This document shows, piece by piece, positions 51,588 through 62,459 of a DNA stretch of 64,000 nt. Below the pieces are notes generated by a model. That model was given only the letters and a program-made list of their open reading frames with translations. It had not been told where the DNA came from and ran no database searches. Each line of letters starts with the position of its first letter. Position 1 is the stretch's first letter. A program made the position numbers and the translations under genes. The stretch lies in sequence record NC_129898.1; one strand, given 5' to 3'. The DNA is from a phage.

Positions 51588-51986
51588 ATGAAAACCACCA
51601 CCTTTAATTTTGATAATGCGGACTTTTCTTTTTCTGATGTCAAAAACTGCCGCCGTGATCGTGGATTTTACAAGGCCTATAATCTGGTGGGCCTGGACGA
51701 TGACAATAATTTGCACGAAGTAGCTGAGATCCGGTATTATGCCGCCGCCAGCGGGAACACTTACTACTGCGTTTTTTGGATACACGACAACAAGAACAAT
51801 AAGTACGGCTATACTGGCGGCAAGGCGAGCGGTCACGGTTACGATAAAGCTAACGCAGCACTTGAGAGCGCATTAAATGCTATGGGGATCACTGCCGACG
51901 GCTGGATCTACGAAGAAGAGTTTTTGTCGGCACTTGCTGCCCATCTAGGGTATAAAAAGCACATTGTGACATGTGCCCACGAATAA
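51588..51986 (+). CDS. hypothetical protein
   Basis: 132 aa after RBS GAGAGGA. Confidence 0.55.
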   Translation: MKTTTFNFDNADFSFSDVKNCRRDRGFYKAYNLVGLDDDNNLHEVAEIRYYAAASGNTYYCVFWIHDNKNNKYGYTGGKASGHGYDKANAALESALNAMGITADGWIYEEEFLSALAAHLGYKKHIVTCAHE

Positions 51987-51991
51987 AAATC

Positions 51992-52048
51992 ATTGACACG
52001 CTGCAAAATTCAAGTAAACTAGACACAAAAGGCGGGAATGTTTCCCGC
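51992..52048 (+). promoter_or_regulatory. promoter plus 5'UTR stem-loop cassette (TTGACA ... ggcggg-aatgtt-tcccgcc)
   Basis: -35 TTGACA at 51992, -10-like aaacta, perfect stem-loop at 52030-52048, then aacacaaa and RBS. Confidence 0.5.
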
Positions 52049-52068
52049 CAACACAAAGGAAAAAGATC

Positions 52069-52473
52069 ATGAATAAGAACGTACGCCGCATCATGAACGA
52101 GTTGGCAAACGATGAAAAAATTATTGACATGCATTTGATCAACATTTGCCGCCGTTGTGTAACATATAACAACCGCGCCGCAAAAGCGCGTGAGATGAAC
52201 GCAAAAGGCACCTTAAAGCCATTCCAGGTGGTGGTAAAGGCCATTAAAAATGTAACTAATACGGCAAACCAGGTACAGGGGAACACCAACGAGAGTACCA
52301 ATATTGATCCGGCTTACATCATGAAACGGATCCGGACCTATAAGAACAAAGAGCAAGTGTATAATGTTATAGACTGGTTGGATTCTATGGGCGACGTGGT
52401 GTACAATAGATTCTCGGCAGCTATTGAGATCCAGCTTGACAGGTTGGACGGTAAAGTACTGAAAACTTATTAA
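52069..52473 (+). CDS. hypothetical protein
   Basis: 134-aa ORF. Confidence 0.55.
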   Translation: MNKNVRRIMNELANDEKIIDMHLINICRRCVTYNNRAAKAREMNAKGTLKPFQVVVKAIKNVTNTANQVQGNTNESTNIDPAYIMKRIRTYKNKEQVYNVIDWLDSMGDVVYNRFSAAIEIQLDRLDGKVLKTY

Positions 52474-52484
52474 GTTTATTTTTA

Positions 52485-52508
52485 GATGGCCTTGACTCTA
52501 GGGCCATC
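52485..52508 (+). repeat. conserved hairpin element gatggccttgactctagggccatc (copy 1 of 4)
   Basis: 7-bp stem with TTGACT in the loop; preceded by tttatttttag and followed by aataaagtaaac; copies at 53107, 53437 (variant), 56829. Confidence 0.8.
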
Positions 52509-52553
52509 AATAAAGTAAACTAGTCTCAACTAAGCGAAAAAGGGGGCTTTAAG

Positions 52554-52673
52554 ATGAGCACTACACGCCAATACACAAAGGTAACTATTATCGTTTGCGT
52601 TGTCGGTTACATCCTGGCGCAAATGTTAATGAGTAGCGCCAACAGTTTTGCAAAATTTTTCTTAAATTTTTAA
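52554..52673 (+). CDS. small hydrophobic peptide (39 aa)
   Basis: ATG after RBS AAGGGGG; central hydrophobic segment. Confidence 0.4.
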   Translation: MSTTRQYTKVTIIVCVVGYILAQMLMSSANSFAKFFLNF

Positions 52674-52730
52674 TTGACAAGTAAATCTCAATAAGTATAC
52701 TTAAACACGTAAACGGGAAAACTTCCCAGA
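52674..52730 (+). promoter_or_regulatory. promoter plus stem-loop cassette, copy A (TTGACA-16-TATACT, degenerate stem-loop)
   Basis: Nearly identical over about 55 nt to the cassette at 54512-54568. Confidence 0.55.
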
Positions 52731-52752
52731 ACACACAAAAGGAGAAAACACC

Positions 52753-53094
52753 ATGACTACTATGACCGCCGCAGAAAAAGCTATGCAGATCGCCGCGCTG
52801 AAAAAACAGATCGCAGACCTTGAGAACAAGATCGATAACTTTGAAATCGACGAGGACAAGTACGACGAAAACTATAATGAATGGCTAGACGAGATCCACG
52901 GCGAAATTATGATCGGTAACATTTCTTTTCTTCCGTCGCGTATCCTCAAAGAGTTAGATCCTATTGCTTACCGCTGCGGATTTAGCGATTACATCGATAG
53001 CCTGGATATTGAGGACGATGAAGAGTACCAAGAATTGCAGATAGAGCTGGGAGAAGTGAAAGAGGAGCTTTCAAAGCTGGAAGAGAACGAGTAA
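52753..53094 (+). CDS. hypothetical acidic protein
   Basis: 113 aa after RBS AAGGAGA. Confidence 0.55.
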   Translation: MTTMTAAEKAMQIAALKKQIADLENKIDNFEIDEDKYDENYNEWLDEIHGEIMIGNISFLPSRILKELDPIAYRCGFSDYIDSLDIEDDEEYQELQIELGEVKEELSKLEENE

Positions 53095-53106
53095 AATTTA
53101 TTTTTA

Positions 53107-53130
53107 GATGGCCTTGACTCCAGGGCCATC
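53107..53130 (+). repeat. conserved hairpin element (copy 2)
   Basis: gatggccttgactccagggccatc with the same flanks. Confidence 0.8.
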
Positions 53131-53181
53131 AATAAAGTAAACTTTACACTGTTAACACTGAACTAATGAGGAGTTAAAACT

Positions 53182-53427
53182 ATGGCAGCACTAATCACCA
53201 AATATTATGCGCCTACCAACACAAAAAGCGCCCGTATCATGGTAAAAGGCTTCGGACGTAAAAAGGTTTACGCCTGGGACTATTCCCTAGATATGGAAGA
53301 CAATTATACCAACGTAATGACCGATTTTATTAATGATCTGAATAAACAGATCTTAACCGACTACAAAGTGACCGATATTGCTTACATAGGTGAAGGCGGG
53401 ATCTGTTTTGTAGGCATTGTGAAATAG
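53182..53427 (+). CDS. hypothetical protein
   Basis: 81 aa after RBS GAGGAG. Confidence 0.5.
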   Translation: MAALITKYYAPTNTKSARIMVKGFGRKKVYAWDYSLDMEDNYTNVMTDFINDLNKQILTDYKVTDIAYIGEGGICFVGIVK

Positions 53428-53436
53428 TTATTTTTC

Positions 53437-53460
53437 GGTGGTCCTGGTTGCAGGGCCATC
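53437..53460 (+). repeat. conserved hairpin element (copy 3, variant)
   Basis: ggtggtcctggttgcagggccatc with a similar 5' flank. Confidence 0.6.
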
Positions 53461-53502
53461 TATAAAGATAATTTATTAACACCATGAAAGGAGAAAGTAC
53501 AC

Positions 53503-53856
53503 ATGATCAGCGGGGCTAGTTTTATTATTGGCGCTATTGCTACGGCTTTAATTGTAAACAAGATCCAGGATAAAAAGGAAAGAGGAAGTACCGCCCTTGC
53601 AGAATATCCATTTTGGACATTTAACGATAACGAAGATTATATTATAAAGTATAAAAATAAAGAAGGCGACCAAGTAACACCGCGACCGATCCCGGCTTAC
53701 AAAATGCAGGAAACACTATACCGCTTGGAGGCGGGGGGCGCAAAAATTGTTGACTTTTGGGGATACGACCACACAGATCAGGAAGTTATAAAGCGCCGTA
53801 TCCGGGCTATTCAGGCCAATATTGAGGTTAACAAGGGGGGAATATATGAAAATTAA
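53503..53856 (+). CDS. hypothetical protein with N-terminal hydrophobic segment
   Basis: 117 aa after RBS AAGGAGA. Confidence 0.5.
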   Translation: MISGASFIIGAIATALIVNKIQDKKERGSTALAEYPFWTFNDNEDYIIKYKNKEGDQVTPRPIPAYKMQETLYRLEAGGAKIVDFWGYDHTDQEVIKRRIRAIQANIEVNKGGIYEN

Positions 53857-54043
53857 TTTCGAGAAAATTGTAAAGCGCCCTCATGATTCCGAAGAGTTGC
53901 CAGAACGCCGACAGCGCAACAATAAACTGAATAAGCCAAAAAGGTTTGGGAAGATCTGGCGGAATCATTATGATCGTAAATTGCCCGGCCTACTTTTGGA
54001 ACGTGAACGACAGGCAGAACGATACCGCCATAAAGACAAATAA
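53846..54043 (+). CDS. small basic protein
   Basis: ATG 53846 after RBS AAGGGGGG (track begins at 53822). Confidence 0.45.
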   Translation: MKINFEKIVKRPHDSEELPERRQRNNKLNKPKRFGKIWRNHYDRKLPGLLLERERQAERYRHKDK

Positions 54044-54049
54044 CAACCA

Positions 54050-54080
54050 ACGCCCCGCCATTGTGCGGGGCTTTTTATTT
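54050..54080 (+). terminator. rho-independent terminator
   Basis: Hairpin ccccgc-cattgt-gcgggg followed by ctttttattt. Confidence 0.65.
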
Positions 54081-54201
54081 CTATCCTACGAATAGCGCCC
54101 CTGGTTGGCCCTGTAAGCGCCAAAAAGGCCCCCACCTATGCAATCGCCCCCTTTAACCTGAAAACATCGCTCAGGGCCGTTTTATAGCGTTAAAAATATC
54201 A

Positions 54202-54229
54202 TTGACATCGTCAACAGGTTAGCTATACT
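54202..54229 (+). promoter_or_regulatory. sigma70-like promoter (TTGACA-16-TATACT)
   Basis: Upstream of RBS AAAGGAG and the ORF at 54262. Confidence 0.5.
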
Positions 54230-54261
54230 AACCACATCAAAGAGAGAAAGGAGTAAACGCC

Positions 54262-54522
54262 ATGCGTAAATTAAAAAATTTTGATAAAGTTGATGTTATC
54301 CTGAATAATTTTTACTACTGCAACAACAAGGCTATTTGGTGGCGGGATAGTTCCACCGATAAAGTCAAGGCGCGCTTTCTTCAGGGGCACTGGCAAGGCC
54401 GCCCAGTGATTAAAATCATGGGGCAATTGGTAGCGTTTAAAAATTGCCGCCGTGTTGATGACGTTGAGGAGATTTTAAACATTTTGCGCCACAATAATTT
54501 AAAAAATAGTGTTGACAAGTAA
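54262..54522 (+). CDS. hypothetical protein
   Basis: 86-aa ORF. Confidence 0.5.
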   Translation: MRKLKNFDKVDVILNNFYYCNNKAIWWRDSSTDKVKARFLQGHWQGRPVIKIMGQLVAFKNCRRVDDVEEILNILRHNNLKNSVDK

Positions 54523-54568
54523 ATCTCAATAAGTATAATTAAACACACAGGCGGGAAAACTTCCCGCC
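54512..54568 (+). promoter_or_regulatory. promoter plus stem-loop cassette, copy B (TTGACA-16-TATAAT, ggcggg-aaaact-tcccgcc)
   Basis: Consensus promoter then perfect stem-loop at 54550-54568; duplicate of the cassette at 52674. Confidence 0.6.
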
Positions 54569-54596
54569 ACTAACAAAGAAAACAGGAGAAAATATC

Positions 54597-55220
54597 ATGA
54601 CCACCGTTAACATTACCACAGGTTACAATTTATCTTTCGACGTGCTGACCGACGAACAAAAAGAAAAAGCCATTGAAATGGTCCGCGAAAGAGAAGAACG
54701 CAGCGGGGATGATTTTTTCGCAGAAAATGTAATTGATTACTACAAAGAATATATCTTTCCAGAGTACGGCCTTGAGGATACCGAAGTACATTGGTCCGGC
54801 TTTTGGTGTCAAGGCGATGGCGCATCGATTAGTGCTGAAAATGTAGACTTAGAAAAATTCTTGCGTAAAGTCAAGGCCCTGACCAAGTTCAGATCAATTC
54901 GTCACTTGTTCGGCACAATGCACGATGGCGAACTATCCGCCAGTGTTGAACGCGACAAGTACAGCCATTACAGCCATGAAAACACTGTAAGCGGGTACAT
55001 TGATACCACTTGGATAGATCTGACCGCCAAACAAGAAAACAAAGTGGAAGATCTGGAAGAATTGATCACCGAGACGGTACGGGAGCTATCCCGCAAGGTT
55101 TACGTAGACCTTGAGGAGGCCTATCTAGAACAGTTCACCGCAGAAAACCTGATCGGCCTTATTCAGGCCAATGATTGGCGGTTTGATGTCGATGAATATG
55201 GTGAGATGACTTTTTCATAA
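54597..55220 (+). CDS. hypothetical protein
   Basis: 207 aa after RBS AGGAGA. Confidence 0.55.
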   Translation: MTTVNITTGYNLSFDVLTDEQKEKAIEMVREREERSGDDFFAENVIDYYKEYIFPEYGLEDTEVHWSGFWCQGDGASISAENVDLEKFLRKVKALTKFRSIRHLFGTMHDGELSASVERDKYSHYSHENTVSGYIDTTWIDLTAKQENKVEDLEELITETVRELSRKVYVDLEEAYLEQFTAENLIGLIQANDWRFDVDEYGEMTFS

Positions 55221-55228
55221 ATAAAGTG

Positions 55229-55289
55229 TTGCAATAACCTAAAAACCTGCTATATTAAAACTCAAGGCGGGCGAGACGTTTGCCCGCCA
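55229..55289 (+). promoter_or_regulatory. promoter plus stem-loop cassette (TTGCAA-16-TATATT, ggcgggcgagacgtttgcccgcc)
   Basis: Stem-loop at 55267-55289 followed by aacacaaa and RBS AGAGGA. Confidence 0.5.
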
Positions 55290-55313
55290 ACACAAAACAA
55301 AGAGGATAACATC

Positions 55314-55694
55314 ATGAAAAATACTACCAAGGCTATTGACACCGTTATGTTTAACCTGGTTACATTCCGTGAAGATATGAAAGATCTTCCGCGTGAAACA
55401 GTGTGCGACCATATCGAAAACTATCGCAAACTAATCAAAGAGTTGCCTTTAAAACGTGATCAATATGCGGCTAACGCCATGCTTAATGCCATGATCAAAA
55501 AGATGATCCAGTGTGATTTAACCCTGGCCTATGATTATGCAGGCGGTCGTTTTGCAGTATACAATCAGCCCGTGCCCGGTATGAGTACCACCGAAGAATT
55601 GCACGCGCTCAATCTAAAACAGGACGTGTGGGATAGTATGCCTCGCGTGGTGGTATGGGTAGAAAGCGGAAAGATTTACGGCGATAATTTTTAA
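55314..55694 (+). CDS. hypothetical protein
   Basis: 126-aa ORF. Confidence 0.55.
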   Translation: MKNTTKAIDTVMFNLVTFREDMKDLPRETVCDHIENYRKLIKELPLKRDQYAANAMLNAMIKKMIQCDLTLAYDYAGGRFAVYNQPVPGMSTTEELHALNLKQDVWDSMPRVVVWVESGKIYGDNF

Positions 55695-55758
55695 TCAGGT
55701 AGCAGGCGGCATATTTGCCGCCTTATTGTTGATCAGAACTGCAAAAGAGGTACATAGA

Positions 55759-56130
55759 ATGGAATTTATTATTTTGGCTGTATTGGTTGCCTTATTTAAC
55801 GCCTGGATCGCTGGCAAGATGGGAAGATCCGCCTTTTTATGGTTTATTATATCTATTTTCCTGGGGGTGGTTGCAACTATTGTATTGGTTATCCTTGCAA
55901 TTGTTGACAAGGGGAATAATAGAAAGGGTAAAGTATTTTCAGACCTGTACGACGCTCAAACTTTTGTTAACGCCTATTATAGTGATCTCCCAGTCTCCCT
56001 ACGTTGCAGCCTTGCACAACAGGTTTTCGATGAAGCTAAAACCAGAGACCACGCCCATGAGATTTGTTTAACTGAGGCGGATCGCTTATTTGAGAGGAAT
56101 AGAAAATATGTGGGCCAGCCGTTTAAATAA
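55759..56130 (+). CDS. membrane protein (two predicted TM segments)
   Basis: ATG 55759 after RBS AAGAGG (track begins at 55726); hydrophobic helices. Confidence 0.5.
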   Translation: MEFIILAVLVALFNAWIAGKMGRSAFLWFIISIFLGVVATIVLVILAIVDKGNNRKGKVFSDLYDAQTFVNAYYSDLPVSLRCSLAQQVFDEAKTRDHAHEICLTEADRLFERNRKYVGQPFK

Positions 56131-56329
56131 TACCACGTTAATTAATCCATTTAGTGAAGATTTGAGGCCAGCCGCCTGGCGGGATGGATTCAATAACGAA
56201 AAATTTACTTTTAGGCCTGATCTTGAGGAATTTTATAACAATGGATCGAACAACGACAGAGATAATTTTTCTTGCGGTGTGTGTCGTGATCGGACTACTG
56301 GGAGCCATTGCAAACCACGTAACCGCTAA
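56108..56329 (+). CDS. hypothetical protein (alternative frame 56241-56366 also possible)
   Basis: ATG 56108 after RBS GAGAGGA; overlaps a second plausible small TM ORF in another frame. Confidence 0.3.
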   Translation: MWASRLNNTTLINPFSEDLRPAAWRDGFNNEKFTFRPDLEEFYNNGSNNDRDNFSCGVCRDRTTGSHCKPRNR

Positions 56330-56349
56330 CAGAAGGAAAGGGGGAGACG

Positions 56350-56469
56350 ATGACACCCAAGGATAAGCCCCGCACCGATAAGGCGCGCCGTGTTATGGTA
56401 TGGCTGGAGATCATCGCCCTTGAAATATTGTTAGGCGTAGGGATGTATTTTATCGCCGTACGTACCTGA
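56350..56469 (+). CDS. small membrane peptide (39 aa)
   Basis: ATG after RBS AAGGGGGAG; hydrophobic C-terminal half; terminator follows. Confidence 0.45.
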   Translation: MTPKDKPRTDKARRVMVWLEIIALEILLGVGMYFIAVRT

Positions 56470-56473
56470 TAAC

Positions 56474-56506
56474 GGCCCCCGATCCCTGGGGGCCTGACTT
56501 TTTTCA
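56474..56506 (+). terminator. rho-independent terminator
   Basis: Hairpin ggccccc-gatccct-gggggcc followed by tgacttttttc. Confidence 0.65.
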
Positions 56507-56528
56507 AAAAAATTTTTCTTCCGGGGTG

Positions 56529-56582
56529 TTGCAATCCGGTCCGGGATATGGATAATAACAATCAACGGGGAGACACTCCCCA
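56529..56582 (+). promoter_or_regulatory. promoter plus stem-loop cassette (TTGCAA-16-GATAAT, ggggag-acac-tcccc)
   Basis: Shares the spacer core atatggataataa with the cassette at 57347. Confidence 0.5.
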
Positions 56583-56615
56583 CCACACAGACAAAGTTCC
56601 AAAAGGAGAAACAAA

Positions 56616-56816
56616 ATGAGCAACAATATCCGCGTTATTAATTTCAAAAAAGAAGAAAAAATCGCTGTGCTGGTTGATGGTCAAGAAATATTCAAGGGGT
56701 ATTATGAAGATCATCAGGCGGCGATCAGTATTACCCGCGTAATTGGTTACCATAATTTTTACCCTCAAGGCGCTGAGGCAGCAGTAAAACGAATTAAAGA
56801 GATCGTAGGCCTGTAA
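56616..56816 (+). CDS. hypothetical protein
   Basis: 66 aa after RBS AAGGAGA. Confidence 0.5.
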   Translation: MSNNIRVINFKKEEKIAVLVDGQEIFKGYYEDHQAAISITRVIGYHNFYPQGAEAAVKRIKEIVGL

Positions 56817-56828
56817 AATTTATTTTTA

Positions 56829-56852
56829 GATGGCCTTGACCCCAGGGCCATC
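56829..56852 (+). repeat. conserved hairpin element (copy 4)
   Basis: gatggccttgaccccagggccatc with the same flanks. Confidence 0.8.
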
Positions 56853-56902
56853 AAATAAAGTAAATTTAAACCCTGCTAAAATAATCAGTGCAAAAAGGAG
56901 CA

Positions 56903-57208
56903 ATGATCATGTTTATACCCGCCAATAATCTTTATTTCTTTGATGGTCAGATCGTAGACGGCGTGGAAGTTGAGATCACTGGATGTCAAGGCGGCCAGGT
57001 AATGATCTTCCGCAATAGTGCCTTTAACGATCATTTTATTACAATGACTGTGGAAGTTAAAAAGCTGGATGATAAGAAAACACTCATTGACTATTCCGTG
57101 AAAGATCATCCAGACTACCACATGATCTATGGTGATTTGTGCATTGTTGACCGTGACAAGGTGGGCGGCATTGTGATCGCTATTGTGAACGATGTTTTCT
57201 CTGAATAA
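56903..57208 (+). CDS. hypothetical protein
   Basis: ATG 56903 (or 56909) after RBS AAAGGAG (track begins at 56888). Confidence 0.5.
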   Translation: MIMFIPANNLYFFDGQIVDGVEVEITGCQGGQVMIFRNSAFNDHFITMTVEVKKLDDKKTLIDYSVKDHPDYHMIYGDLCIVDRDKVGGIVIAIVNDVFSE

Positions 57209-57346
57209 TTCCGGCAAATGATGCAAAATAAGGCCCATGGCAGGGCCTGCAGCGATATAATCACACAAAGGCTATGCGGTTGCATGGCCTTTTTTATTTT
57301 AGCGCTACAGCGGCCCCCAAGGCGTTTAAAAAATTTTTAAAAGTAC

Positions 57347-57398
57347 TTGCATCAAGTCCGACAATATGGATAATAAGACTTATCAGGGGGCGGCCCCC
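57347..57398 (+). promoter_or_regulatory. promoter plus stem-loop cassette (TTGCAT-16-GATAAT, gggggcggccccc)
   Basis: Hexamers with 16-nt spacer, stem-loop at 57384-57398, then RBS and ATG 57431. Confidence 0.5.
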
Positions 57399-57430
57399 AA
57401 TCATTAACCGGATAGATAGGAGTTAAAATC

Positions 57431-57715
57431 ATGGCTATTGTTACTGTTGGCGATGTAGTAGAAATGGAAGCAAAATACTTAAAAGCGGGTATGCATATCC
57501 TACGCAACGATCTTGAACTAGTCCTGACAATGGTCGACTATAATCCCGGTCAGGATTATCCAAGCATCGACTACTTTTTCCAGTATGTTGATGAAGAATT
57601 AAAAGAGGATGAGGCTTATCAGGGTGAATTTTGTAATTTCTTTTGCCCTGACGAGATTGTAAAAGTTATCTATCAACCTGGCGTACCTTTCCCGTTGCAC
57701 GCCATCAATAAATAA
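57431..57715 (+). CDS. hypothetical protein
   Basis: 94 aa after RBS TAGGAG. Confidence 0.55.
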   Translation: MAIVTVGDVVEMEAKYLKAGMHILRNDLELVLTMVDYNPGQDYPSIDYFFQYVDEELKEDEAYQGEFCNFFCPDEIVKVIYQPGVPFPLHAINK

Positions 57716-57778
57716 GCCTGGCGGGGCCGAAAAAGGCCCCTCCTGAAAATATGAAAAAATAAAGATAGGTGAATCATC

Positions 57779-58012
57779 ATGATGGAACAAATTAAACGCG
57801 CTGAGGCTATTAATGGTAATGTGATCTATTTTGTCAGCAAAAACGAAAAAGGCGTACCCTATGCGGCGGTAATAGTACAGCCTGACGGCGATTATTGGTG
57901 CACTGTGTACGGCGCTTATTCTTTTGGGCGTCCAGTGCATGATAAAATTTTGAAAGTAGCGAACCCTACCGGGAAAAATATCACAGCAGAAAAATTTTTT
58001 GAAAATAGTTGA
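57779..58012 (+). CDS. hypothetical protein
   Basis: 77-aa ORF. Confidence 0.5.
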   Translation: MMEQIKRAEAINGNVIYFVSKNEKGVPYAAVIVQPDGDYWCTVYGAYSFGRPVHDKILKVANPTGKNITAEKFFENS

Positions 58013-58076
58013 CAACAAACAACAATCTAACAAAGCATAATACATAAGGCGGCAATGATGCCGCCAACATGACAGA

Positions 58077-58340
58077 ATGAGAAACATCATTTACAGACTG
58101 ACAAAACGCAACATTATGATCGCCACCGTGATCGCTTGCCTTTTCGCTTTCGTGAGTAACGCAACGTTTAACGCCGTGGGCGGGGCGATGTTTAATGCTG
58201 GCAGCGTTTCAACAGCTAACACAATGATCGATTGTTTGCAACTTTTCTTTTATGTTGCCTTTCGTTTAAAAATAGCTTGCAAGGTAGACCGTTTTGATTT
58301 ACCTTTCATTTGTGGCGGCGTGATCGCTATCGTATGTTAA
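58077..58340 (+). CDS. hypothetical hydrophobic protein (start uncertain)
   Basis: 87 aa; preceded by a TTGACA promoter-like site and stem-loop ggcggcaatgatgccgcc; weak RBS. Confidence 0.35.
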   Translation: MRNIIYRLTKRNIMIATVIACLFAFVSNATFNAVGGAMFNAGSVSTANTMIDCLQLFFYVAFRLKIACKVDRFDLPFICGGVIAIVC

Positions 58341-58507
58341 GGATCAGAAGATGGGAAAACTCTCAATTCTGTTGTTTTATCAAAAACCTTGACAATATCA
58401 GAATGTACAGACGGTTAAAAATAATTGTTGACACCAGGCGCGGATCTGGTAAAGTGTACGACATAGGGCGGGGCAATAAGGCAACGCCCATTAATGATGG
58501 TGGAATC

Positions 58508-58612
58508 ATGTTAGAAAAAATTTTCACGGTTGTAGTAGTTGGCATGGCATTATCGGTTGGAGTGGTTGCAACTATGGCTAACATGATCCTATCTTCCCAC
58601 GGTATCGGGTAA
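58508..58612 (+). CDS. small membrane peptide (34 aa)
   Basis: Internal ATG of track ORF 58310-58612; the region upstream of it carries promoter-like sequence, so the longer ORF is unlikely. Confidence 0.3.
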   Translation: MLEKIFTVVVVGMALSVGVVATMANMILSSHGIG

Positions 58613-58613
58613 G

Positions 58614-58838
58614 GTGAAACAAATGATCACGAACAAAACAGGGAAAACGGAATTTTTACGCGGCTTGCAAATAGGCAAGCCTGAGATCTGGCATTGCACT
58701 AAAACACCACGTGACGAAATGAAAGACTTTACCGCCACGCTGAAGCGGGTAAAAATATCCATTACGCAGAAAAAAGCCTTGATAGTGGTGGAAGGTGAGA
58801 TCCCTCAAACCGTTGTTATTGTTGAGCGTACAGCATAG
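58614..58838 (+). CDS. hypothetical protein
   Basis: 74-aa ORF. Confidence 0.45.
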   Translation: MKQMITNKTGKTEFLRGLQIGKPEIWHCTKTPRDEMKDFTATLKRVKISITQKKALIVVEGEIPQTVVIVERTA

Positions 58839-58927
58839 TTTAATCTATACCGTACGCCCCATTGACTAACAAAGCATAAGCAGGCGGCGGTGACCGCCTT
58901 GAACGCAACAGAAAGAGAATAGAAAAC

Positions 58928-59062
58928 ATGAGAAAGATAATTATTACCATGGGGATCGTGGCGGCAATGTTGGCGATCTTTCCCTTTATGGTTAGGTATG
59001 TGCTGATCAGTGTTGTCCTGATAGGCAGTGATCTATTGGAAACGGTTGGCAACTGGTTTTAA
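58928..59062 (+). CDS. small membrane peptide (44 aa)
   Basis: Manual ORF, strongly hydrophobic; preceded by a promoter-like site and stem-loop ggcggcggtgaccgcc. Confidence 0.35.
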   Translation: MRKIIITMGIVAAMLAIFPFMVRYVLISVVLIGSDLLETVGNWF

Positions 59063-59117
59063 GATAATAAACAGGGCTTGAAATGGTCCTGTTTTTTGTT
59101 ATACTTATCTCACGGGT

Positions 59118-59160
59118 GGCACCTGGCGACGGGGGGAGACAATCACCGGGGGTGCCCGTT
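59118..59160. repeat. inverted copy of the 50731/50870 dyad repeat unit
   Basis: gggagacaatcaccgggggtgcccgtt is the exact reverse complement of 27 nt at 50731-50757; the extended match resembles the 50870 copy. Confidence 0.85.
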
Positions 59161-59599: not shown

Positions 59600-59863
59600 A
59601 TGAAACGCCTTGATCAGCTCAAACTAGTTCAGTACATGGCCTACAAAGTTATTGAAGTCCAAAAAGGTAGTAAAAAGGAGGTTTGCGAGAAAGCGTACAA
59701 GATCTTTACTCGTAAAAAAGATGATTGGATGTTGCGCCAGACCAAAAAGGCTGATATCCTGGGGTACCTGGAAGAAGAGATCCGGCTTGAAGAGCAAGAA
59801 GAGATCCGCCGAAGTGAGGCAGATTATCAGGCAGCTTGGGAAAGCTGGATGAGCAACAAATAG
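59600..59863 (+). CDS. hypothetical protein
   Basis: ATG 59600 after RBS AAAGAGGA (track begins at 59516). Confidence 0.5.
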   Translation: MKRLDQLKLVQYMAYKVIEVQKGSKKEVCEKAYKIFTRKKDDWMLRQTKKADILGYLEEEIRLEEQEEIRRSEADYQAAWESWMSNK

Positions 59864-59875
59864 TACAACATTATC

Positions 59876-59910
59876 AAGGGGCCTTAAGGCCCCTTTCTTT
59901 TTTGTTTTCT
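59876..59910. terminator. rho-independent terminator ending the plus-strand early block
   Basis: Hairpin aaggggcc-ttaa-ggcccctt followed by tcttttttgtttt. Confidence 0.7.
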
Positions 59911-60510
59911 CTTTTCCTACCATAAACGGCCCCGCCTGGCAAGTGGAATAATTAACGAGCCATCAATCCCGCACACTGTACAAATATACATGTAAAATAG
60001 TTATTGCATAACCTTTCATTGTGTGGTAGCGGTGCTATTTTTACCTGTTTTCTCTCCCAAAATTGCACGTAATGCAGCTATTGCACAAAATTTAACCTGA
60101 TGCACATCTTCAGTATACTGTCAACAATTAAAAACCCTTATAAGTCATACACTTACACAAACCAAAAAGCGCGTCCTACGTGAAAAATCGGGTGTAACTA
60201 TAGCCGACAGATCTCAGAATCCACGTACGATCACCATTCTATAGCCTGCAAAGTATTTATTCCAACCACAGAATAACGGAATAGTCAATACCTGTACAAA
60301 ATAATTATTCGTACAAACTGCATAACATAAACCTGCCCAGGTGTCAACATTTTTCGTAAACAGTTAGAAATTGTCACGATAGGTTACTATAATCAGAGAA
60401 ATATTTAGTCGTCTAATGTTTACTGTACATAACTATACTGACTGGAATCATTAGATGACTAAGAGAAAGATAAGAAATAGTTAACAATGTAATTGTTTTA
60501 CCTGTAACAA

Positions 60511-60707
60511 TAAGGCAACTATGCAAACGAATGGCATGGCGCGACGGAGTCGCGACATAATATAAAAGCAGTAACAATCACCCCCGTGATAGTTTGTCTG
60601 CAATCTATTAATCAGATCATAGTTGCCTTGTATTTAGTTAATCATGACATAACAAGCAAGGCAACTATAGATCTTCTAATAGTTGCCCTGCTTTTATATT
60701 ATGTCAT
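60511..60707. repeat. nested inverted repeats (18-bp gacataatataaaagcag pair; 12-bp atagttgccttg pair) in the non-coding region
   Basis: Perfect 18-bp inverted repeat at 60555-60572 and 60690-60707 encloses a 12-bp inverted repeat pair (60620 and 60656); related copies at 60513 and 60678. Confidence 0.8.
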
Positions 60708-60761
60708 AGAAACGCCCGAAGGGGTGACCTAGTCACCTGGCATAGCCAGCGAAATATTATT

Positions 60762-60824
60762 AACTTGTTAATTGTCAGCTTGTTGGCTGTTAGCTTGTCA
60801 ATTGTTAACTTGCTAATTGTTAAA
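60762..60824. repeat. four tandem copies of a 15-bp unit (agcttgtYaattgtt)
   Basis: acttgttaattgtc agcttgttggctgtt agcttgtcaattgtt aacttgctaattgtt read directly. Confidence 0.8.
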
Positions 60825-62459
60825 CTCGGGAGCATAGCCCTCGTCTCAAGGGTGTTATCATGCAAACGAATGTCATGGCTTATCATCTATGCGTAAACTG
60901 TCAGGGTGTAGACTATTCAGGCGTAAACAGTCTATGCGGGAACAATCTATACGTGAACAGTGAAATATGAAATAATAACAGTCGTTATTGTATCGAAAGT
61001 GTATAAGGTGTCAGATTATGGCATATTGTGTGACATTGTGTCAGACAAGTTTTTCTCCTCTTTGTCAAGTGCTGCATGGAAAATTTACAATCTGGTATGG
61101 TAGCATTTTTGCGGCCCTGTTTACATTCAGGAGTGTATGTATAACCCTTGTTGTGTGGGCGTTTAGACGTCTGGACGGTCAGAAGTCTGCAGGTTAATAT
61201 CTAATCTATTGGTCGCTAACTATATCCCCCACAAATAATAAGAAATGCAATTGTTATATGCGTAAACAGTAACTCATGTTATCAATCCCTGTATGTATCG
61301 CCAGTGGTGCGCATAATGGGTATTATGTTAAATTGCCCGTAATGATAACAGTTCTCACAATGATAGGTATTCTCATTCACCCCCACAAAATAGATTGCAA
61401 ATGTTGTGCCACTGTGTGAACGGCCTCGCCTATTAATTTGCCTCACTGCTCCGATATTTGAGAATTGTTATAAGAATGAGAAGTATTCCCATTTCGTCCG
61501 CCTGGCAGCGCTCCTGTAGGTCAGGTCAAAATCGTGGTAGAACTGGACCCCTTCAGATATTTCTAGCTGACTCTTCAGGCCTGTGTGGGAAAAGCCAACC
61601 TCTCCGGCGGGGCAGGGGGGTCAATTAAAAAATTTACGTAGGGTACGAAGCGCTCTTCAGGTAAGGCATGTATTAGAGGATGAAACCCTCTTCAGGTGAT
61701 GATATTTGTGGGTGTGATATTTGCTGGAAAGCCAGATATGACGGGACTACCGGCGGGGATGGGGTAGTATAGGCAGGGAAAATGTGGAGAATGTGGTTGG
61801 TAAATTTATCAGGCAGGTAGAGTATGGGATATGTTACAGGTATGTTAAATATGGAGGTAGGATATTTGTAAGATTTGTGTGTAAAATCAAAGACTTAAGT
61901 GGTGTTGTGGTATTTTCTATAAATAATTCAAGTTTAATAGGTAATATTTGTCTCTATCCACTTTGTGGGGTAAACAGATTCTAATTGAATTGGTTTACAA
62001 GTGTATATAAAGTATACAAATTAAAGATATAAGAAACCCCCCTCCCCCTTCGGCTACCATTCACCTTTTCCTCTGACTGGTACTTAAACACTTATTCAGA
62101 CTCTTCAGGTTATCACCCATATACTATATGGCAGTGACTGGTGTCCTCTGGCCCCTCTTTCGTCACCCGTCCGCTTCGCCATGCTAATGCCATAGCTAAA
62201 GGTTCGGTTGTTCACCCTGTTCACTCAGGTGTATCTCCATACCCCTTCAAACCGAAGAGAACAGAAAACCCGAATTACTCGGTAAAAGAAAAGAGAAGAA
62301 CTTAATTTTATCAGGATAGGCAAGAATGTCAAGGCATGACTGCTCACTAAACAAGCAAACAGTCATGTGTGGGAGGTAAGTGATTGTGGTGGTAGGAAAT
62401 TTAGTTGAAAGATGTGTTATAGGTGCTTCCAGCACTTTAGCCGGGCAGCTAATTGTGTG

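What the first reader, a model, noticed from the sequence alone, without database searches (positions are those of the whole stretch)
52470..56860. Four copies of a conserved hairpin whose loop carries a TTGAC(T/C) -35-like hexamer
The element aaatttatttttag-GATGGCC-TTGACTCTA-GGGCCATC-aataaagtaaac recurs at 52485, 53107, 56829 and as a variant at 53437, each directly after a stop codon. The T-rich tract precedes rather than follows the stem, so it is not a canonical intrinsic terminator on either strand, and a -35-like hexamer sits in the loop. It may be a structure-gated promoter, an RNA processing site or a protein recognition site.
Basis: seen in the sequence. Interest (0 to 1): 0.5.

Follow-up and report, generated by a model that had tools for sequence, protein, structure and literature searches.

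The report
RNase III-type hairpin between phage genes
A 50-base RNA stem-loop found four times between early genes of an rV5-like coliphage is built like the RNase III cutting sites of phage T7, so it most likely trims and stabilises messenger RNAs rather than starting transcription, and it also serves as a crossover point where gene modules are gained or lost.

Summary
There are four copies (52473-52521, 53091-53147, 53426-53473, 56816-56867), all on the + strand, and each starts at a stop codon. The window is a Vequintavirus (rV5/FV3-like). A complete relative has exactly these four copies, and about 120 sequenced relatives carry the element.

It is a sense-strand RNA structure: a 10-bp upper stem, a tetraloop, a 2x3 internal loop and an 8-13-bp A-U lower stem. 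Across 48 distinct copies, 96% of positions pair. Four pairs show compensatory changes, and every upper-stem change is Watson-Crick<->G-U, so only the sense strand stays paired.

The geometry matches mapped T7 RNase III signals. A covariance model built only from seven T7 sites ranks the four copies as its top four hits in the window, in register. I infer single-strand RNase III cleavage after CAUC(A/U)AU, which would leave a protective 3' hairpin on the upstream cistron (confidence about 0.5; untested).

The copies also recombine. One deletion joins copies 1 and 2, and a promoter-gene-hairpin module is shared with a phi92-like phage.

The TTGAC "-35" is mostly stem, is absent from copy 3, and has an 18-bp spacer. 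A weak sigma-70 promoter in copies 1, 2 and 4 is not excluded. This is a new member of a known kind, of moderate interest.

The parts
52473..52521 (+). Copy 1. Lower stem 52473-82/52512-21, internal loop 52483-84 (UA) and 52509-11 (AAU), upper stem 52485-94/52499-508, tetraloop 52495-98 (ACUC). Predicted cleavage 52511|52512.
   Evidence: RNA fold -22.9 kcal/mol, z -5.6. Element model 79.7 bits. T7-site model 23.8 bits, E 0.0015, the top hit in the window.
53091..53147 (+). Copy 2. Lower stem 53097-104/53134-41, extended by 53091-95/53143-47. Internal loop 53105-06 and 53131-33 (AAU), upper stem 53107-16/53121-30, loop 53117-20 (ACUC). Predicted cleavage 53133|53134.
   Evidence: Fold -23.8 kcal/mol, z -7.5. 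84.6 bits. T7-site model 18.9 bits. Right-hand end of the module shared with KKE7M.
53426..53473 (+). Copy 3, the divergent paralogue. Lower stem 53426-35/53464-73, internal loop C53436 and 53461-63 (UAU), upper stem 53437-46/53451-60 (GGUGGUCCUG/CAGGGCCAUC, with two G-U pairs), loop 53447-50 (GUUG). No -35-like hexamer. Predicted cleavage 53463|53464.
   Evidence: Sense fold -22.4 versus antisense -8.6 kcal/mol. Its orthologues carry compensatory changes. T7-site model 16.6 bits.
56816..56867 (+). Copy 4. Lower stem 56816-26/56857-67, internal loop 56827-28 and 56853-56 (AAAU, one extra A), upper stem 56829-38/56843-52, loop 56839-42 (ACCC). Predicted cleavage 56856|56857.
   Evidence: Fold -23.3 kcal/mol, z -6.0. 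78.8 bits. T7-site model 13.5 bits; the FV3 orthologue scores 25.2 bits.
52069..52473 (+). Gene A (134 aa), the cistron upstream of copy 1. It is preceded by a sigma-70-like promoter at 51993-52020.
   Evidence: ORF list, promoter scan, FV3_00178 annotation.
52554..52673 (+). Gene B (39 aa), downstream of copy 1. No separate consensus promoter lies between the element and its start codon.
   Evidence: FV3_00177.
52674..53094 (+). Promoter cassette (TTGACA-16-TATACT plus the 5' hairpin GGGAAAACUUCCC) and gene C (113 aa, 52753-53094). Together with copy 2 this forms the module 52673-53141 that is shared with the phi92-like phage KKE7M.
53182..53427 (+). Gene D (81 aa), flanked by copy 2 and copy 3.
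   Evidence: FV3_00175.
53503..54071 (+). Genes E (53503-53856) and F (53846-54043), followed by the intrinsic terminator 54052-54071. This is the end of the inferred unit P52674-C-c2-D-c3-E-F-T.
56529..56816 (+). Promoter-like site 56529-56556, a 5' hairpin and gene M (66 aa, 56616-56816), upstream of copy 4.
56909..57292 (+). Gene N (start 56909, or the in-frame 56888/56903, to 57208) and the terminator 57267-57292, downstream of copy 4.

Best explanation
Each copy is a cis-acting RNA element in the polycistronic early transcripts of the + strand. Once the upstream cistron has been transcribed, the RNA folds into about 21-24 bp of quasi-continuous helix: a 10-bp G+C-rich upper stem with a tetraloop, a 2x3 asymmetric internal loop, and an 8-13-bp A-U lower stem. 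This is the architecture of the phage T7 RNase III processing signals. I infer that host RNase III cuts one strand only, at the 3' end of the internal loop (after CAUC-AAU/UAU: 52511|52512, 53133|53134, 53463|53464, 56856|56857). The upstream message (genes A, C, D, M) would then end in a stable 10-bp hairpin that blocks 3'-exonucleases. The downstream message (genes B, D, E/F, N) would begin with a 5'-monophosphate about 40-55 nt before its start codon. The two cistrons would thereby be uncoupled in stability and yield. Because the 50-nt sequence is repeated, it is also a substrate for homologous recombination, and gene modules are lost, gained and exchanged at it. What is shown: the copies exist, the structure is strand-specific and covaries, it lies between cistrons, it matches the T7-site profile, and recombination breakpoints fall on it. 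What is inferred: cleavage by RNase III, the exact cleavage position, and the effect on mRNA stability.
For: (1) Sense-strand RNA folds are -22 to -24 kcal/mol (z -5.6 to -7.5). Antisense folds are weaker in all 37 copies examined, and for copy-3 orthologues the gap is -24 to -32 versus -10 to -18. (2) In 61 copies (48 distinct) from 17 genomes, 96.2% of cells pair, against 32-58% for slid controls. The covariation score is 0.177, against 0.115 +/- 0.007 for shuffles (0/500 reach it) and <=0.068 for slid controls. Four lower-stem pairs change on both sides (AU/GU/GC, UA/CG, UA/GU/GC, AU/UA). The roughly 40 upper-stem changes are all WC<->G-U. (3) T7 sites R1.1, R18.5 and R4.7, folded with the same software, show a 10-bp upper stem, a 3-4-nt loop and a 2-3 x 3 internal loop, with cleavage after the 3-nt 3' strand (UAU^G). 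Copy 3 has the identical UC/UAU internal loop. (4) A covariance model built only from seven T7 signals, run without filters on 128 kb, ranks the four copies 1-4, on the sense strand, full length and in register (23.8, 18.9, 16.6, 13.5 bits; best unrelated hit 12.8). FV3 copies score 25.5, 25.2, 22.5 and 18.9 and the KKE7M copy 22.5, against a background of <=12. (5) RNase III determinants from PMC1540722 and PMC3867540: about two helical turns; an 11-bp distance from loop to cleavage site, where the element has 10 bp plus a mismatch; the U-A/U.G distal box next to the loop-closing pair in copies 1, 2 and 4; A-U at proximal-box position 2; and no G-C at the catalytic antideterminant position. 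(6) Each copy lies inside a promoter-to-terminator unit, directly after a stop codon and 40-57 nt before the next start codon. (7) The element is 93.5-95.7% conserved, against 88-91% for flanking genes and 79-93% for the adjacent spacers. (8) Length changes fall only in the loop or internal loop. (9) Recombination: a hybrid c1/c2 copy in phiWec189 and in an IMG/VR contig, and the module 52673-53141 in KKE7M, which ends at the last base of the lower stem. Loop variants are shared between copies 1 and 2 within genomes.
Against: There are no RNA-end or rnc-mutant data for any rV5-like phage; none was found. The T7-profile scores are modest and their E-values are rough by design. Proximal-box positions 1 and 3 (U-A, G-C) are not the optimal G-C and A-U. 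Copy 3 lacks the U.G of the distal box and has G.U at proximal-box position 2. The lower stem is almost pure A-U, and its 5' strand starts at the stop codon, so terminating ribosomes would melt it. The model does not explain why TTGAC and TAAA(C/T)T at an 18-bp spacing are kept in copies 1, 2 and 4, nor why distant relatives have a plain sigma-70 promoter at the same position. The T7 cleavage coordinates were recalled from memory, although they are consistent with the annotation gaps and with the 28-nt product described in PMC1540722.
Confidence: 0.5

Rival explanations
1. Copies 1, 2 and 4 are sigma-70 promoters for the downstream genes B, D and N. The T-rich tract would act as an UP-like element, TTGAC(N) as the -35, an 18-bp spacer would follow, and TAAA(C/T)T would be the -10. 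The inverted repeat would be either an operator flanking the -35 or the remnant of a 'promoter-coupled terminator'. This could coexist with the RNA function: a hairpin in read-through RNA and a promoter in the DNA.
For: The consensus scan lists TTGACT-18-TAAACT at 52492 and 53114 with 9/12 matches. PhagePromoter annotated the orthologous sites in phage Gotham. The hexamers and the 18-bp spacing are kept in 40 of 42 copies of types 1, 2 and 4, and 11 of them have a perfect TTGACA. Genes B, D and N have no other consensus promoter in front of them. In Citrobacter, Klebsiella and Acinetobacter relatives, the homologue of gene C is followed by an ordinary sigma-70 promoter cassette. There is a published precedent for stem-loop DNA supplying a -35 element (bioRxiv 10.64898/2026.08.19.745784). 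From my own knowledge, AAATTTATTTT matches the UP-element distal consensus AAAWWTWTTTT; I did not test this with a tool.
Against: Copy 3 and all of its orthologues keep the structure through compensatory changes but have no -35. A promoter does not explain covariation between the T-rich and A-rich flanks, or the preference for G-U pairs on the sense strand only. An 18-bp spacer with a 4/6 match at the -10 is weak, and 9/12 matches are at chance level in this region (68 found, 40 expected). Insertions that give 19- and 20-bp spacers are tolerated. The authors of the rV5 record, who searched stringently for sigma-70 promoters, did not call these sites. Gotham's copy 1 has lost 5 nt, which destroys the spacing, yet gene B is retained.
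Confidence: 0.2
2. The hairpin is an intercistronic mRNA stabiliser or decay barrier that works without RNase III. It would stall 3'-exonucleases (PNPase, RNase II) after cleavage or termination downstream. After RNase E cuts the A/U-rich flanks, it could also protect the downstream RNA as a 5' hairpin.
For: The same structural, strand and positional evidence applies. The flanks are A/U-rich, as RNase E sites are. The upper stem alone is very stable. Other intergenic regions here also carry stabiliser-like 5' hairpins directly after promoters.
Against: A simple barrier needs neither a lower stem that covaries, nor a fixed 10-bp upper stem with a constant 2x3 internal loop, nor would it be expected to match the T7 RNase III profile in register.
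Confidence: 0.15
3. The hairpin is the binding site of a dedicated phage or host protein other than RNase III. Candidates include an antitermination factor (nut/put-like), a translational regulator, or a DNA-binding dimer that recognises GATGGCC-N10-GGCCATC.
For: Loop positions 1-2 are conserved within each paralogue class (AC or GU) while position 3 is free. The stem sequence is almost invariant. The position just after a stop codon is where lambda nutR lies (my own knowledge). The same 10-bp stem occurs in a cassette element of temperate Pseudomonas phages that sits in a leader carrying a boxA motif.
Against: No boxA lies near the copies. The two paralogue classes have different loops. G-U pairs argue against a double-stranded DNA operator. 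The shared stem may be coincidence: about 24 unrelated matches occur in 596 Gb. No candidate protein was identified.
Confidence: 0.08
4. The repeat has no function of its own. It is a duplicated intergenic fragment kept homogeneous by gene conversion, and the hairpin is incidental.
For: There are only four copies, all within 4.4 kb. There are signs of concerted evolution and of recombination between copies. Gotham tolerates the loss of copy 1's stem.
Against: Compensatory changes in the divergent copy 3 preserve pairing. The element is more conserved than the flanking coding sequence. It is maintained at the same four sites in about 120 genomes and in a different subfamily.
Confidence: 0.05

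Closest known systems
Phage T7 RNase III processing signals (R0.3, R0.5, R1, R1.1, R1.3, R4.7, R18.5)
   Same: Both are intercistronic and lie on the sense strand of polycistronic phage mRNA. Both have a 9-10-bp upper stem with a small loop, a small asymmetric internal loop with 3 nt on the 3' side (UAU in T7; UAU or AAU here) and an irregular lower stem, giving about two helical turns in total. The U-A/U.G pairs lie under the loop-closing pair. The T7-derived covariance model picks the four copies as its best hits, in register.
   Different: There is no sequence homology: the element's own model finds nothing in T7. The host phage is a large myovirus that uses host RNA polymerase. The lower stem is pure A-U and begins at the stop codon. 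Proximal-box positions 1 and 3 differ from the optimum. Cleavage has not been demonstrated.
PeSL cassettes (promoter-early stem-loops) of T4-like phages (PMC2839356, PMC4122927)
   Same: Both are short repeated intergenic motifs in a hyperplastic region of small ORFan genes. Both combine a stem-loop with sigma-70-like hexamers. Insertions, deletions and module swaps have their breakpoints in the motif.
   Different: A PeSL is ordered stem-loop, then AT-rich tract, then a strong consensus promoter, and its stem-loop terminates transcription. Here the -35-like hexamer lies inside the hairpin, there is no U-tract, one paralogue has no promoter-like hexamers, and there are only four copies. Ordinary PeSL-like cassettes also occur in this window (for example 56474-56585).
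Promoter-coupled terminators (Fletcher et al. 2026, bioRxiv 10.64898/2026.08.19.745784)
   Same: Stem-loop-encoding DNA overlaps the -35 hexamer, and the -10 follows one spacer length downstream.
   Different: Their spacer is the terminator T-tract. Here it is A-rich (AAUAAAG), so no intrinsic termination is expected, and the structure extends through a lower stem that includes the putative -10.
Intrinsic (rho-independent) terminators
   Same: A G+C-rich hairpin directly after a gene.
   Different: There is no U-tract after the stem on either strand. The T-rich tract is upstream and pairs with the A-rich tract downstream.

Membership tests
T7-type RNase III processing signal | Located between cistrons on the sense strand of a polycistronic transcript | tested here: met
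   All four copies are on the + strand, between + strand ORFs and inside promoter-to-terminator units. The promoters and terminators are consensus predictions only.
T7-type RNase III processing signal | About two helical turns of dsRNA: upper stem of about 10 bp, small asymmetric internal loop, lower stem | tested here: met
   10 bp + tetraloop + 2x3 internal loop + 8-13 bp. T7 R1.1, R18.5 and R4.7 folded the same way give the same layout.
T7-type RNase III processing signal | Match to a sequence and structure profile of the T7 sites | tested here: met
   Model R2, built from seven T7 sites, places the four copies as the top four hits in the window (13.5-23.8 bits; best other hit 12.8). FV3 and KKE7M copies score 18.9-25.5 bits against a background of <=12. 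The E-values are rough.
T7-type RNase III processing signal | Base-pair determinants of E. coli RNase III: distal box U-A/U.G; proximal box G-C, A-U/U-A, A-U, A-U/mismatch; no G-C at positions 2 or 4 | tested here: inconclusive
   Copies 1, 2 and 4: the distal box is exact, position 2 is A-U, position 4 is an A.A mismatch, but position 1 is U-A and position 3 is G-C. Copy 3: the distal box is U-A/C-G and position 2 is G.U. The reviews state that natural proximal boxes are degenerate.
T7-type RNase III processing signal | Cleaved by RNase III in vivo and in vitro | not testable with these tools
   No transcript-end data for rV5-like phages were found.
T7-type RNase III processing signal | Sequence homology to the T7 family | tested here: not met
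   The element model R1 finds no hit in the T7 genome at E<=10 with filters off. The relation is architectural, not ancestral.
Structured cis-regulatory RNA (general) | Pairing conserved through compensatory and wobble changes, specific to one strand | tested here: met
   96.2% paired, four pairs with double changes, covariation above all 500 shuffles and above all slid controls. Sense folds are more stable than antisense folds in all copies. Caveat: the alignment was fitted to the model, and the copies are related.
Sigma-70 promoter | -35 and -10 hexamers at 16-18 bp spacing, conserved in all members | tested here: inconclusive
   TTGAC(N)-18-TAAA(C/T)T is present in copies 1, 2 and 4 of nearly all genomes, with a 9/12 match. 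It is absent from copy 3. Spacers of 19 and 20 bp occur in two copies. Activity cannot be tested here.
Intrinsic terminator | Run of U directly after a G+C-rich hairpin | tested here: not met
   The sequence after the stem is CAAUAAAGUAAA on the + strand and CUAAAAAUAAA on the - strand. None of the copies appears in the terminator scan.
PeSL cassette | Repeated intergenic stem-loop/promoter motif in a hyperplastic region, with indel breakpoints in the motif | tested here: met
   phiWec189 and IMG/VR contig L011 carry a single hybrid c1/c2 copy where the intervening 620 bp is missing. The KKE7M module ends at the element.
PeSL cassette | Order stem-loop, then AT-rich tract, then a strong consensus promoter, with the stem-loop acting as a terminator; T4-like genome | tested here: not met
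   The hexamer lies inside the hairpin, there is no U-tract, the promoter-like match is weak, and the genome is a Vequintavirus.
Known RNA families (Rfam 15) | Match to any curated covariance model | tested here: not met
   Only an unrelated sub-threshold hit elsewhere (BjrC68 at 59854, E 0.19).

The most novel reading that the evidence does not exclude
The stem GAUGGCCUUG/CAGGGCCAUC, with its U.G wobble, may be a sequence-specific recognition hairpin that unrelated phages use at the junctions of accessory-gene cassettes. It would be read by a dedicated, still unknown factor that regulates or mobilises the cassettes. In Vequintavirus it follows stop codons. In temperate Pseudomonas siphoviruses and their prophages the identical stem, with a GNRA loop and its own lower stem, sits 10-25 nt upstream of the ribosome-binding site of many unrelated genes.
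Probability: 0.07. Interest if true: 0.8.

Novelty: new member of a known kind. Interest (0 to 1): 0.45.

Why it matters
rV5-like phages (Vequintavirus) are widely isolated and are used in phage-therapy and biocontrol work, yet their gene regulation is almost unstudied. Their published annotation knows only sigma-70 promoters and rho-independent terminators. If these hairpins are RNase III sites, they would be the first post-transcriptional control elements defined in this group. They would also show that the T7 strategy, cutting polycistronic early RNA so that each upstream message ends in a protective hairpin, arose independently in a large myovirus that uses the host polymerase. There is a practical consequence too: promoter-prediction software already annotates these sites as promoters in public records, which is probably wrong or at best incomplete. 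The element also marks natural module boundaries (promoter-gene-hairpin), which is useful to know when engineering or minimising these genomes.

Tried and rejected
1. Intrinsic terminator on either strand: rejected, because there is no U-tract and the copies are not in the terminator scan.
2. Known RNA family: Rfam at permissive thresholds finds nothing at the copies.
3. More copies elsewhere: none in the window with filters off and none in the rest of the FV3 genome.
4. Sequence homology to T7 sites: the element's own model finds nothing in T7.
5. Host mimicry: there is no similar sequence in 5,426 E. coli genomes. The bacterial-genome pattern scan gave only Pseudomonas-group prophage cassettes and about 24 unrelated matches.
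6. Conservation in distant relatives: homologues of gene C in Citrobacter Tr1, Klebsiella FKP3 and Acinetobacter ABPH49 are followed by plain promoter cassettes, not by the hairpin.
7. IMG/VR sampling by protein homology gave only two extra loci.
8. Literature: the rV5 genome paper does not mention the element. No transcriptome or RNA-end data were found for Vequintavirus. A search for the stem sequence returned only coincidences such as the Tetrahymena P4-P6 domain. I could not find a held paper listing the T7 RNase III coordinates.
9. Stop-codon readthrough stimulator: rejected by inspection, because the read-through frames differ between copies and copy 1 hits a second stop after three codons.
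10. lambda-type nut site: there is no boxA near the copies, and the stem is 10 bp rather than 5 bp.
11. The Pseudomonas-phage hairpin family as a second T7-like set: rejected, because it scores at background with the T7 model (10.9 bits).

Full report
WHAT IS THERE. The window is a Vequintavirus, an rV5/FV3-like coliphage. The 8 kb around the finding is 97% identical to phages HMD-6 and FV3 and 88-95% identical to more than 100 other records. The variant at 53437 is recovered through its flanks. A covariance model built from the four copies and run without filters on both strands finds these four and nothing else in the window. It also finds exactly the same four orthologous sites in the complete 137-kb FV3 genome. 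BLAST finds the element in about 120 phage records. All are rV5-like except one phi92-like phage. All four copies are on the + strand, begin at or within 3 nt of the stop codon of a + strand ORF, and end 40-57 nt before the next start codon.

ANATOMY. As RNA, the + strand of every copy folds into the same two-tier hairpin. There is a 10-bp upper stem (GAUGGCCUUG/CAGGGCCAUC, including one U.G pair) closed by a tetraloop. Next comes an asymmetric internal loop with 1-2 nt on the 5' side and 3-4 nt on the 3' side. Below it is a lower stem of 8-13 A-U/G-U pairs, formed by the upstream T-rich tract and the downstream A-rich tract. Fold energies are -22.4 to -23.8 kcal/mol, with z-scores of -5.6 to -7.5 against shuffles. 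Most of the 'TTGAC' hexamer is therefore not loop. TTG forms the top three pairs of the stem, and only AC(N)(C/U) is unpaired. There is no run of U after the stem on either strand, and the terminator scan does not list the copies.

IT IS AN RNA STRUCTURE OF THE SENSE STRAND. In 37 copies from 11 genomes, the sense fold is always more stable than the antisense fold. For orthologues of the 53437 copy the difference is -24 to -32 versus -10 to -18 kcal/mol. I then aligned 61 copies (48 distinct) from 17 genomes. In that alignment 96.2% of cells form standard pairs, against 32-58% when the 3' partners are slid by 1-3 columns. The covariation score is 0.177, against 0.115 +/- 0.007 in shuffles (0 of 500 reach it) and at most 0.068 in slid controls. 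Four lower-stem pairs change on both sides: AU/GU/GC, UA/CG, UA/GU/GC and AU/UA. All of the roughly 40 one-sided changes in the upper stem interconvert Watson-Crick and G-U pairs. G-U pairs become A-C mismatches on the other strand, so selection acts on the + strand as a single strand. The simplest reading is the mRNA. Two caveats apply: the alignment was fitted to the model, and the copies are related, so the number of independent events is small. The element is also slightly more conserved across 13 genomes (93.5-95.7% identity to the window) than the flanking coding sequence (88-91%) and the downstream spacers (79-93%).

CONTEXT. The region is a run of small genes of unknown function. Most are preceded by a near-consensus sigma-70 promoter followed by a short 5' hairpin, and some are followed by canonical terminators. 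From those consensus matches, which are an inference and not a measurement, the copies lie inside three units: P51993-geneA-c1-geneB, P52674-geneC-c2-geneD-c3-geneE-geneF-T54052, and P56529-geneM-c4-geneN-T57267. The rV5 genome paper and GenBank record list sigma-70 promoters and terminators but nothing at these sites. Rfam has no matching family. I found no transcriptome study of this genus.

COMPARISON WITH RNase III SITES. Reviews and primary work on E. coli RNase III (PMC3867540, PMC1540722) define its substrates by several features:
- About two helical turns of dsRNA.
- A distal box (U-A, U.G) beside the loop.
- A proximal box (G-C, A-U/U-A, A-U, A-U/U-A), in which G-C at position 2 blocks binding and G-C at position 4 blocks catalysis.
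- Internal loops that restrict cleavage to one strand, so that the product carries a protective 3' hairpin.

I folded the T7 sites with the same software. The coordinates were recalled from Dunn and Studier 1983. All of them fall in intergenic gaps of the T7 record, and R1.1 agrees with the GCAA loop and 28-nt product described. R1.1, R18.5 and R4.7 show a 10-bp upper stem, a 3-4-nt loop and a 2-3 x 3 internal loop, with cleavage at the end of the 3-nt 3' strand (CCUU-UAU^G). R0.5 and R1 are close variants. The element has the same layout. Copy 3 even has the same internal loop (UC opposite UAU), and the others have UA opposite AAU. Counting from the loop, copies 1, 2 and 4 have the closing pair, then U-A and U.G (the canonical distal box), an A-U pair at proximal-box position 2, and a mismatch at position 4, where native R1.1 also has a mismatch. 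Positions 1 and 3 are not optimal, and copy 3 departs at the distal box and at position 2.

The reciprocal profile test is the strongest single result. A covariance model built only from seven T7 signals was run without filters over both strands of the window. Its four best hits are exactly the four copies. They are on the sense strand, full length, and have stems and internal loop in register (23.8, 18.9, 16.6 and 13.5 bits; best unrelated hit 12.8). In FV3 the four copies score 25.5, 25.2, 22.5 and 18.9 bits and the KKE7M copy 22.5, against a background of 12 or less. The converse search, the element model against T7, finds nothing. The likeness is therefore architectural and not homology.

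MECHANISM PROPOSED. The following is inferred. In read-through early transcripts the element folds, and host RNase III binds the roughly 22-bp helix. Because of the internal loop, it cuts only the 3' strand, after CAUC-AAU (or UAU). The predicted sites are 52511|52512, 53133|53134, 53463|53464 and 56856|56857. The upstream cistron would keep a 10-bp G+C-rich 3' hairpin and be protected from 3'-exonucleases. The downstream cistron would start with a 5'-monophosphate and no hairpin. The two would then differ in stability and yield, as in the T7 early region. I put this at about 0.5. That the element acts as a structured RNA of some kind I put at about 0.85.

SECOND ROLE: RECOMBINATION POINT. In phiWec189 and in an IMG/VR contig, homology to the window runs 51718-52521 and 53094-57222, and the two blocks overlap on a single hybrid c1/c2 copy. 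The 620 bp between copies 1 and 2 (gene B, a promoter and gene C) has therefore been lost or gained by exchange between copies. KKE7M is a phi92-like phage of another subfamily. It shares only window 52673-53141, which runs from the first base of the promoter cassette to the last base of copy 2's lower stem. That span is a promoter-gene-hairpin module. Within genomes, copies 1 and 2 often carry the same loop variant: ACAC/ACAC in three phages, ACUU/ACUU in another, and ACUC/ACUC in FV3. This suggests gene conversion. The behaviour parallels the PeSL cassettes of T4-like phages, although the anatomy differs. Not every rearrangement uses the element: the deletions in rV5_ev146 end elsewhere, and in Gotham copy 1 has lost 5 nt of its 3' arm.

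THE PROMOTER QUESTION. TTGAC(N)-18-TAAA(C/T)T is kept in copies 1, 2 and 4 of nearly all genomes. It scores 9/12 in the consensus scan and was annotated by PhagePromoter in Gotham. Genes B, D and N have no other consensus promoter. In distant relatives, the homologue of gene C is followed by an ordinary promoter cassette. A recent preprint shows that stem-loop DNA can supply a -35 element in 'promoter-coupled terminators'. Several points weigh against a promoter being the element's main purpose:
- Copy 3 has the structure but no -35.
- The flanks covary.
- The pairing is strand-specific.
- The spacer is long.
- The two length variants (19 and 20 bp) fall in unpaired RNA positions.
- 9/12 matches are at chance level in this region (68 found against 40 expected).

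A dual element, a hairpin in read-through RNA and a weak promoter in DNA, is possible. In T7, several RNase III sites also share their intergenic spacer with promoters. I give the promoter reading 0.2 as the primary function.

SIDE OBSERVATION. A degenerate pattern for the upper stem, scanned through IMG/VR, found the two Vequintavirus contigs and also 22 contigs of 35-64 kb that carry the identical stem in a different conserved setting: gatttcctc-GATGGCCTTG-GNRA-CAGGGCCATC-cgggaaa. These contigs are related to temperate Pseudomonas siphoviruses (phiPSA1, psageK9, Medea1) and to prophages of Pseudomonas-group genomes. In those phages the hairpin lies 10-25 nt upstream of the ribosome-binding site of many unrelated accessory genes. 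In psageK9 it sits in an early leader that carries a promoter and a boxA motif, and it shows a compensatory G-C to C-G flip. It does not fit the T7 profile (10.9 bits). The pattern also has about 24 unrelated matches in 596 Gb of bacterial genomes, so the shared stem may be coincidence. I record it without building on it.

VERDICT. The element is an undescribed, conserved, sense-strand RNA structure with the architecture of T7-type RNase III signals, and it doubles as a recombination point. I classify it as a new member of a known kind, of moderate interest (0.45). The cleavage itself remains to be shown.

Noticed in passing
L017-L041 (IMG/VR), L042:3005-3051 (psageK9), L043:3001-3048 (phiPSA1), and L044, L051, L052, L057, L058, L060, L064, L066, L076 (Pseudomonas-group genomes): A separate conserved hairpin family has the identical 10-bp stem (GAUGGCCUUG/CAGGGCCAUC, with the same U.G wobble) but a GNRA tetraloop and its own lower stem (UUUCC/GGGAA). 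It sits 10-25 nt upstream of the RBS of many unrelated accessory genes in temperate Pseudomonas phages and prophages, including a CsrA-like protein, a LuxR-type HTH protein, HNH-like proteins and small membrane proteins. In psageK9 it lies in a leader that has a sigma-70 promoter and a boxA motif (CGCTCTTTAACA). It has no Rfam match and does not fit the T7 RNase III profile.
   Followed up: partly
window 52674-52760 and 54512-54600; also 51993-52049, 55229-55290, 56474-56585: Repeated early-promoter cassettes: a near-consensus TTGACA-16/17-TATA(A/C)T followed within about 15 nt by a G+C hairpin (GGGAAAACUUCCC, GGCGGGAAAACUUCCCGCC). The first two are about 79% identical over 90 nt. At 56474-56585 the order is terminator-like stem-loop, then AT-rich tract, then promoter, then 5' hairpin, as in the PeSL cassettes of RB49/phi1. 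The left boundary of the module shared with KKE7M is the first base of one such cassette.
   Followed up: partly
L008 (rV5_ev146) versus window 52062-52566 and 53991-59141: This rV5 derivative lacks gene A with copy 1, and a further 5 kb after gene F. Neither deletion ends in a copy of the element, so the whole block of small genes, including three of the four copies, appears to be dispensable for growth.
   Followed up: no
L001:2796-2852 (phage Gotham, orthologue of copy 1): A 5-nt deletion (GGGCC) has removed most of the 3' arm of the upper stem. The fold collapses from about -25 to -8.9 kcal/mol, while the flanks and the downstream 39-aa ORF are retained. This is a natural knock-out of one copy.
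   Followed up: partly
search results (MG0656xx records): About 20 records named 'Campylobacter phage' with host Campylobacter jejuni are 90-93% identical to this coliphage over 8 kb and carry the same element. The host assignment of those records looks doubtful.
   Followed up: no
window 52753-53094 (gene C): In most relatives the protein match stops at residue 96 of 113 at 95-98% identity, whereas the closest relatives match full length. The last 17 codons next to copy 2 are therefore a replaced segment, perhaps another recombination footprint. Distant homologues (35-46% identity) occur in Vibrio, Citrobacter, Klebsiella, Acinetobacter and Pseudomonas phages.
   Followed up: no
window 57267-57302: The canonical terminator after gene N (AAAGGCTATGCGGTTGCATGGCCTTT) is followed by TTTATTTTAG, nearly the same string as the TTTATTTTTAG that precedes the upper stem of the element.
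   Followed up: no
L015:2838-2900 (Acinetobacter phage ABPH49): After the gene C homologue, a sigma-70 promoter (TTGACT-15-CTATAAT) has an inverted repeat (GGTGCCGCC...GGTGGCATC) that spans its -10 element. This is another case of a hairpin superimposed on a promoter in this phage group.
   Followed up: no
window about 59900-62300 (FV3 104329-106593): In FV3 a 2.2-kb stretch between the two converging or diverging gene blocks has no annotated gene (the rV5 paper marks a 'non-coding' box). In the window, the promoter-like hits switch strand in this area.
   Followed up: no
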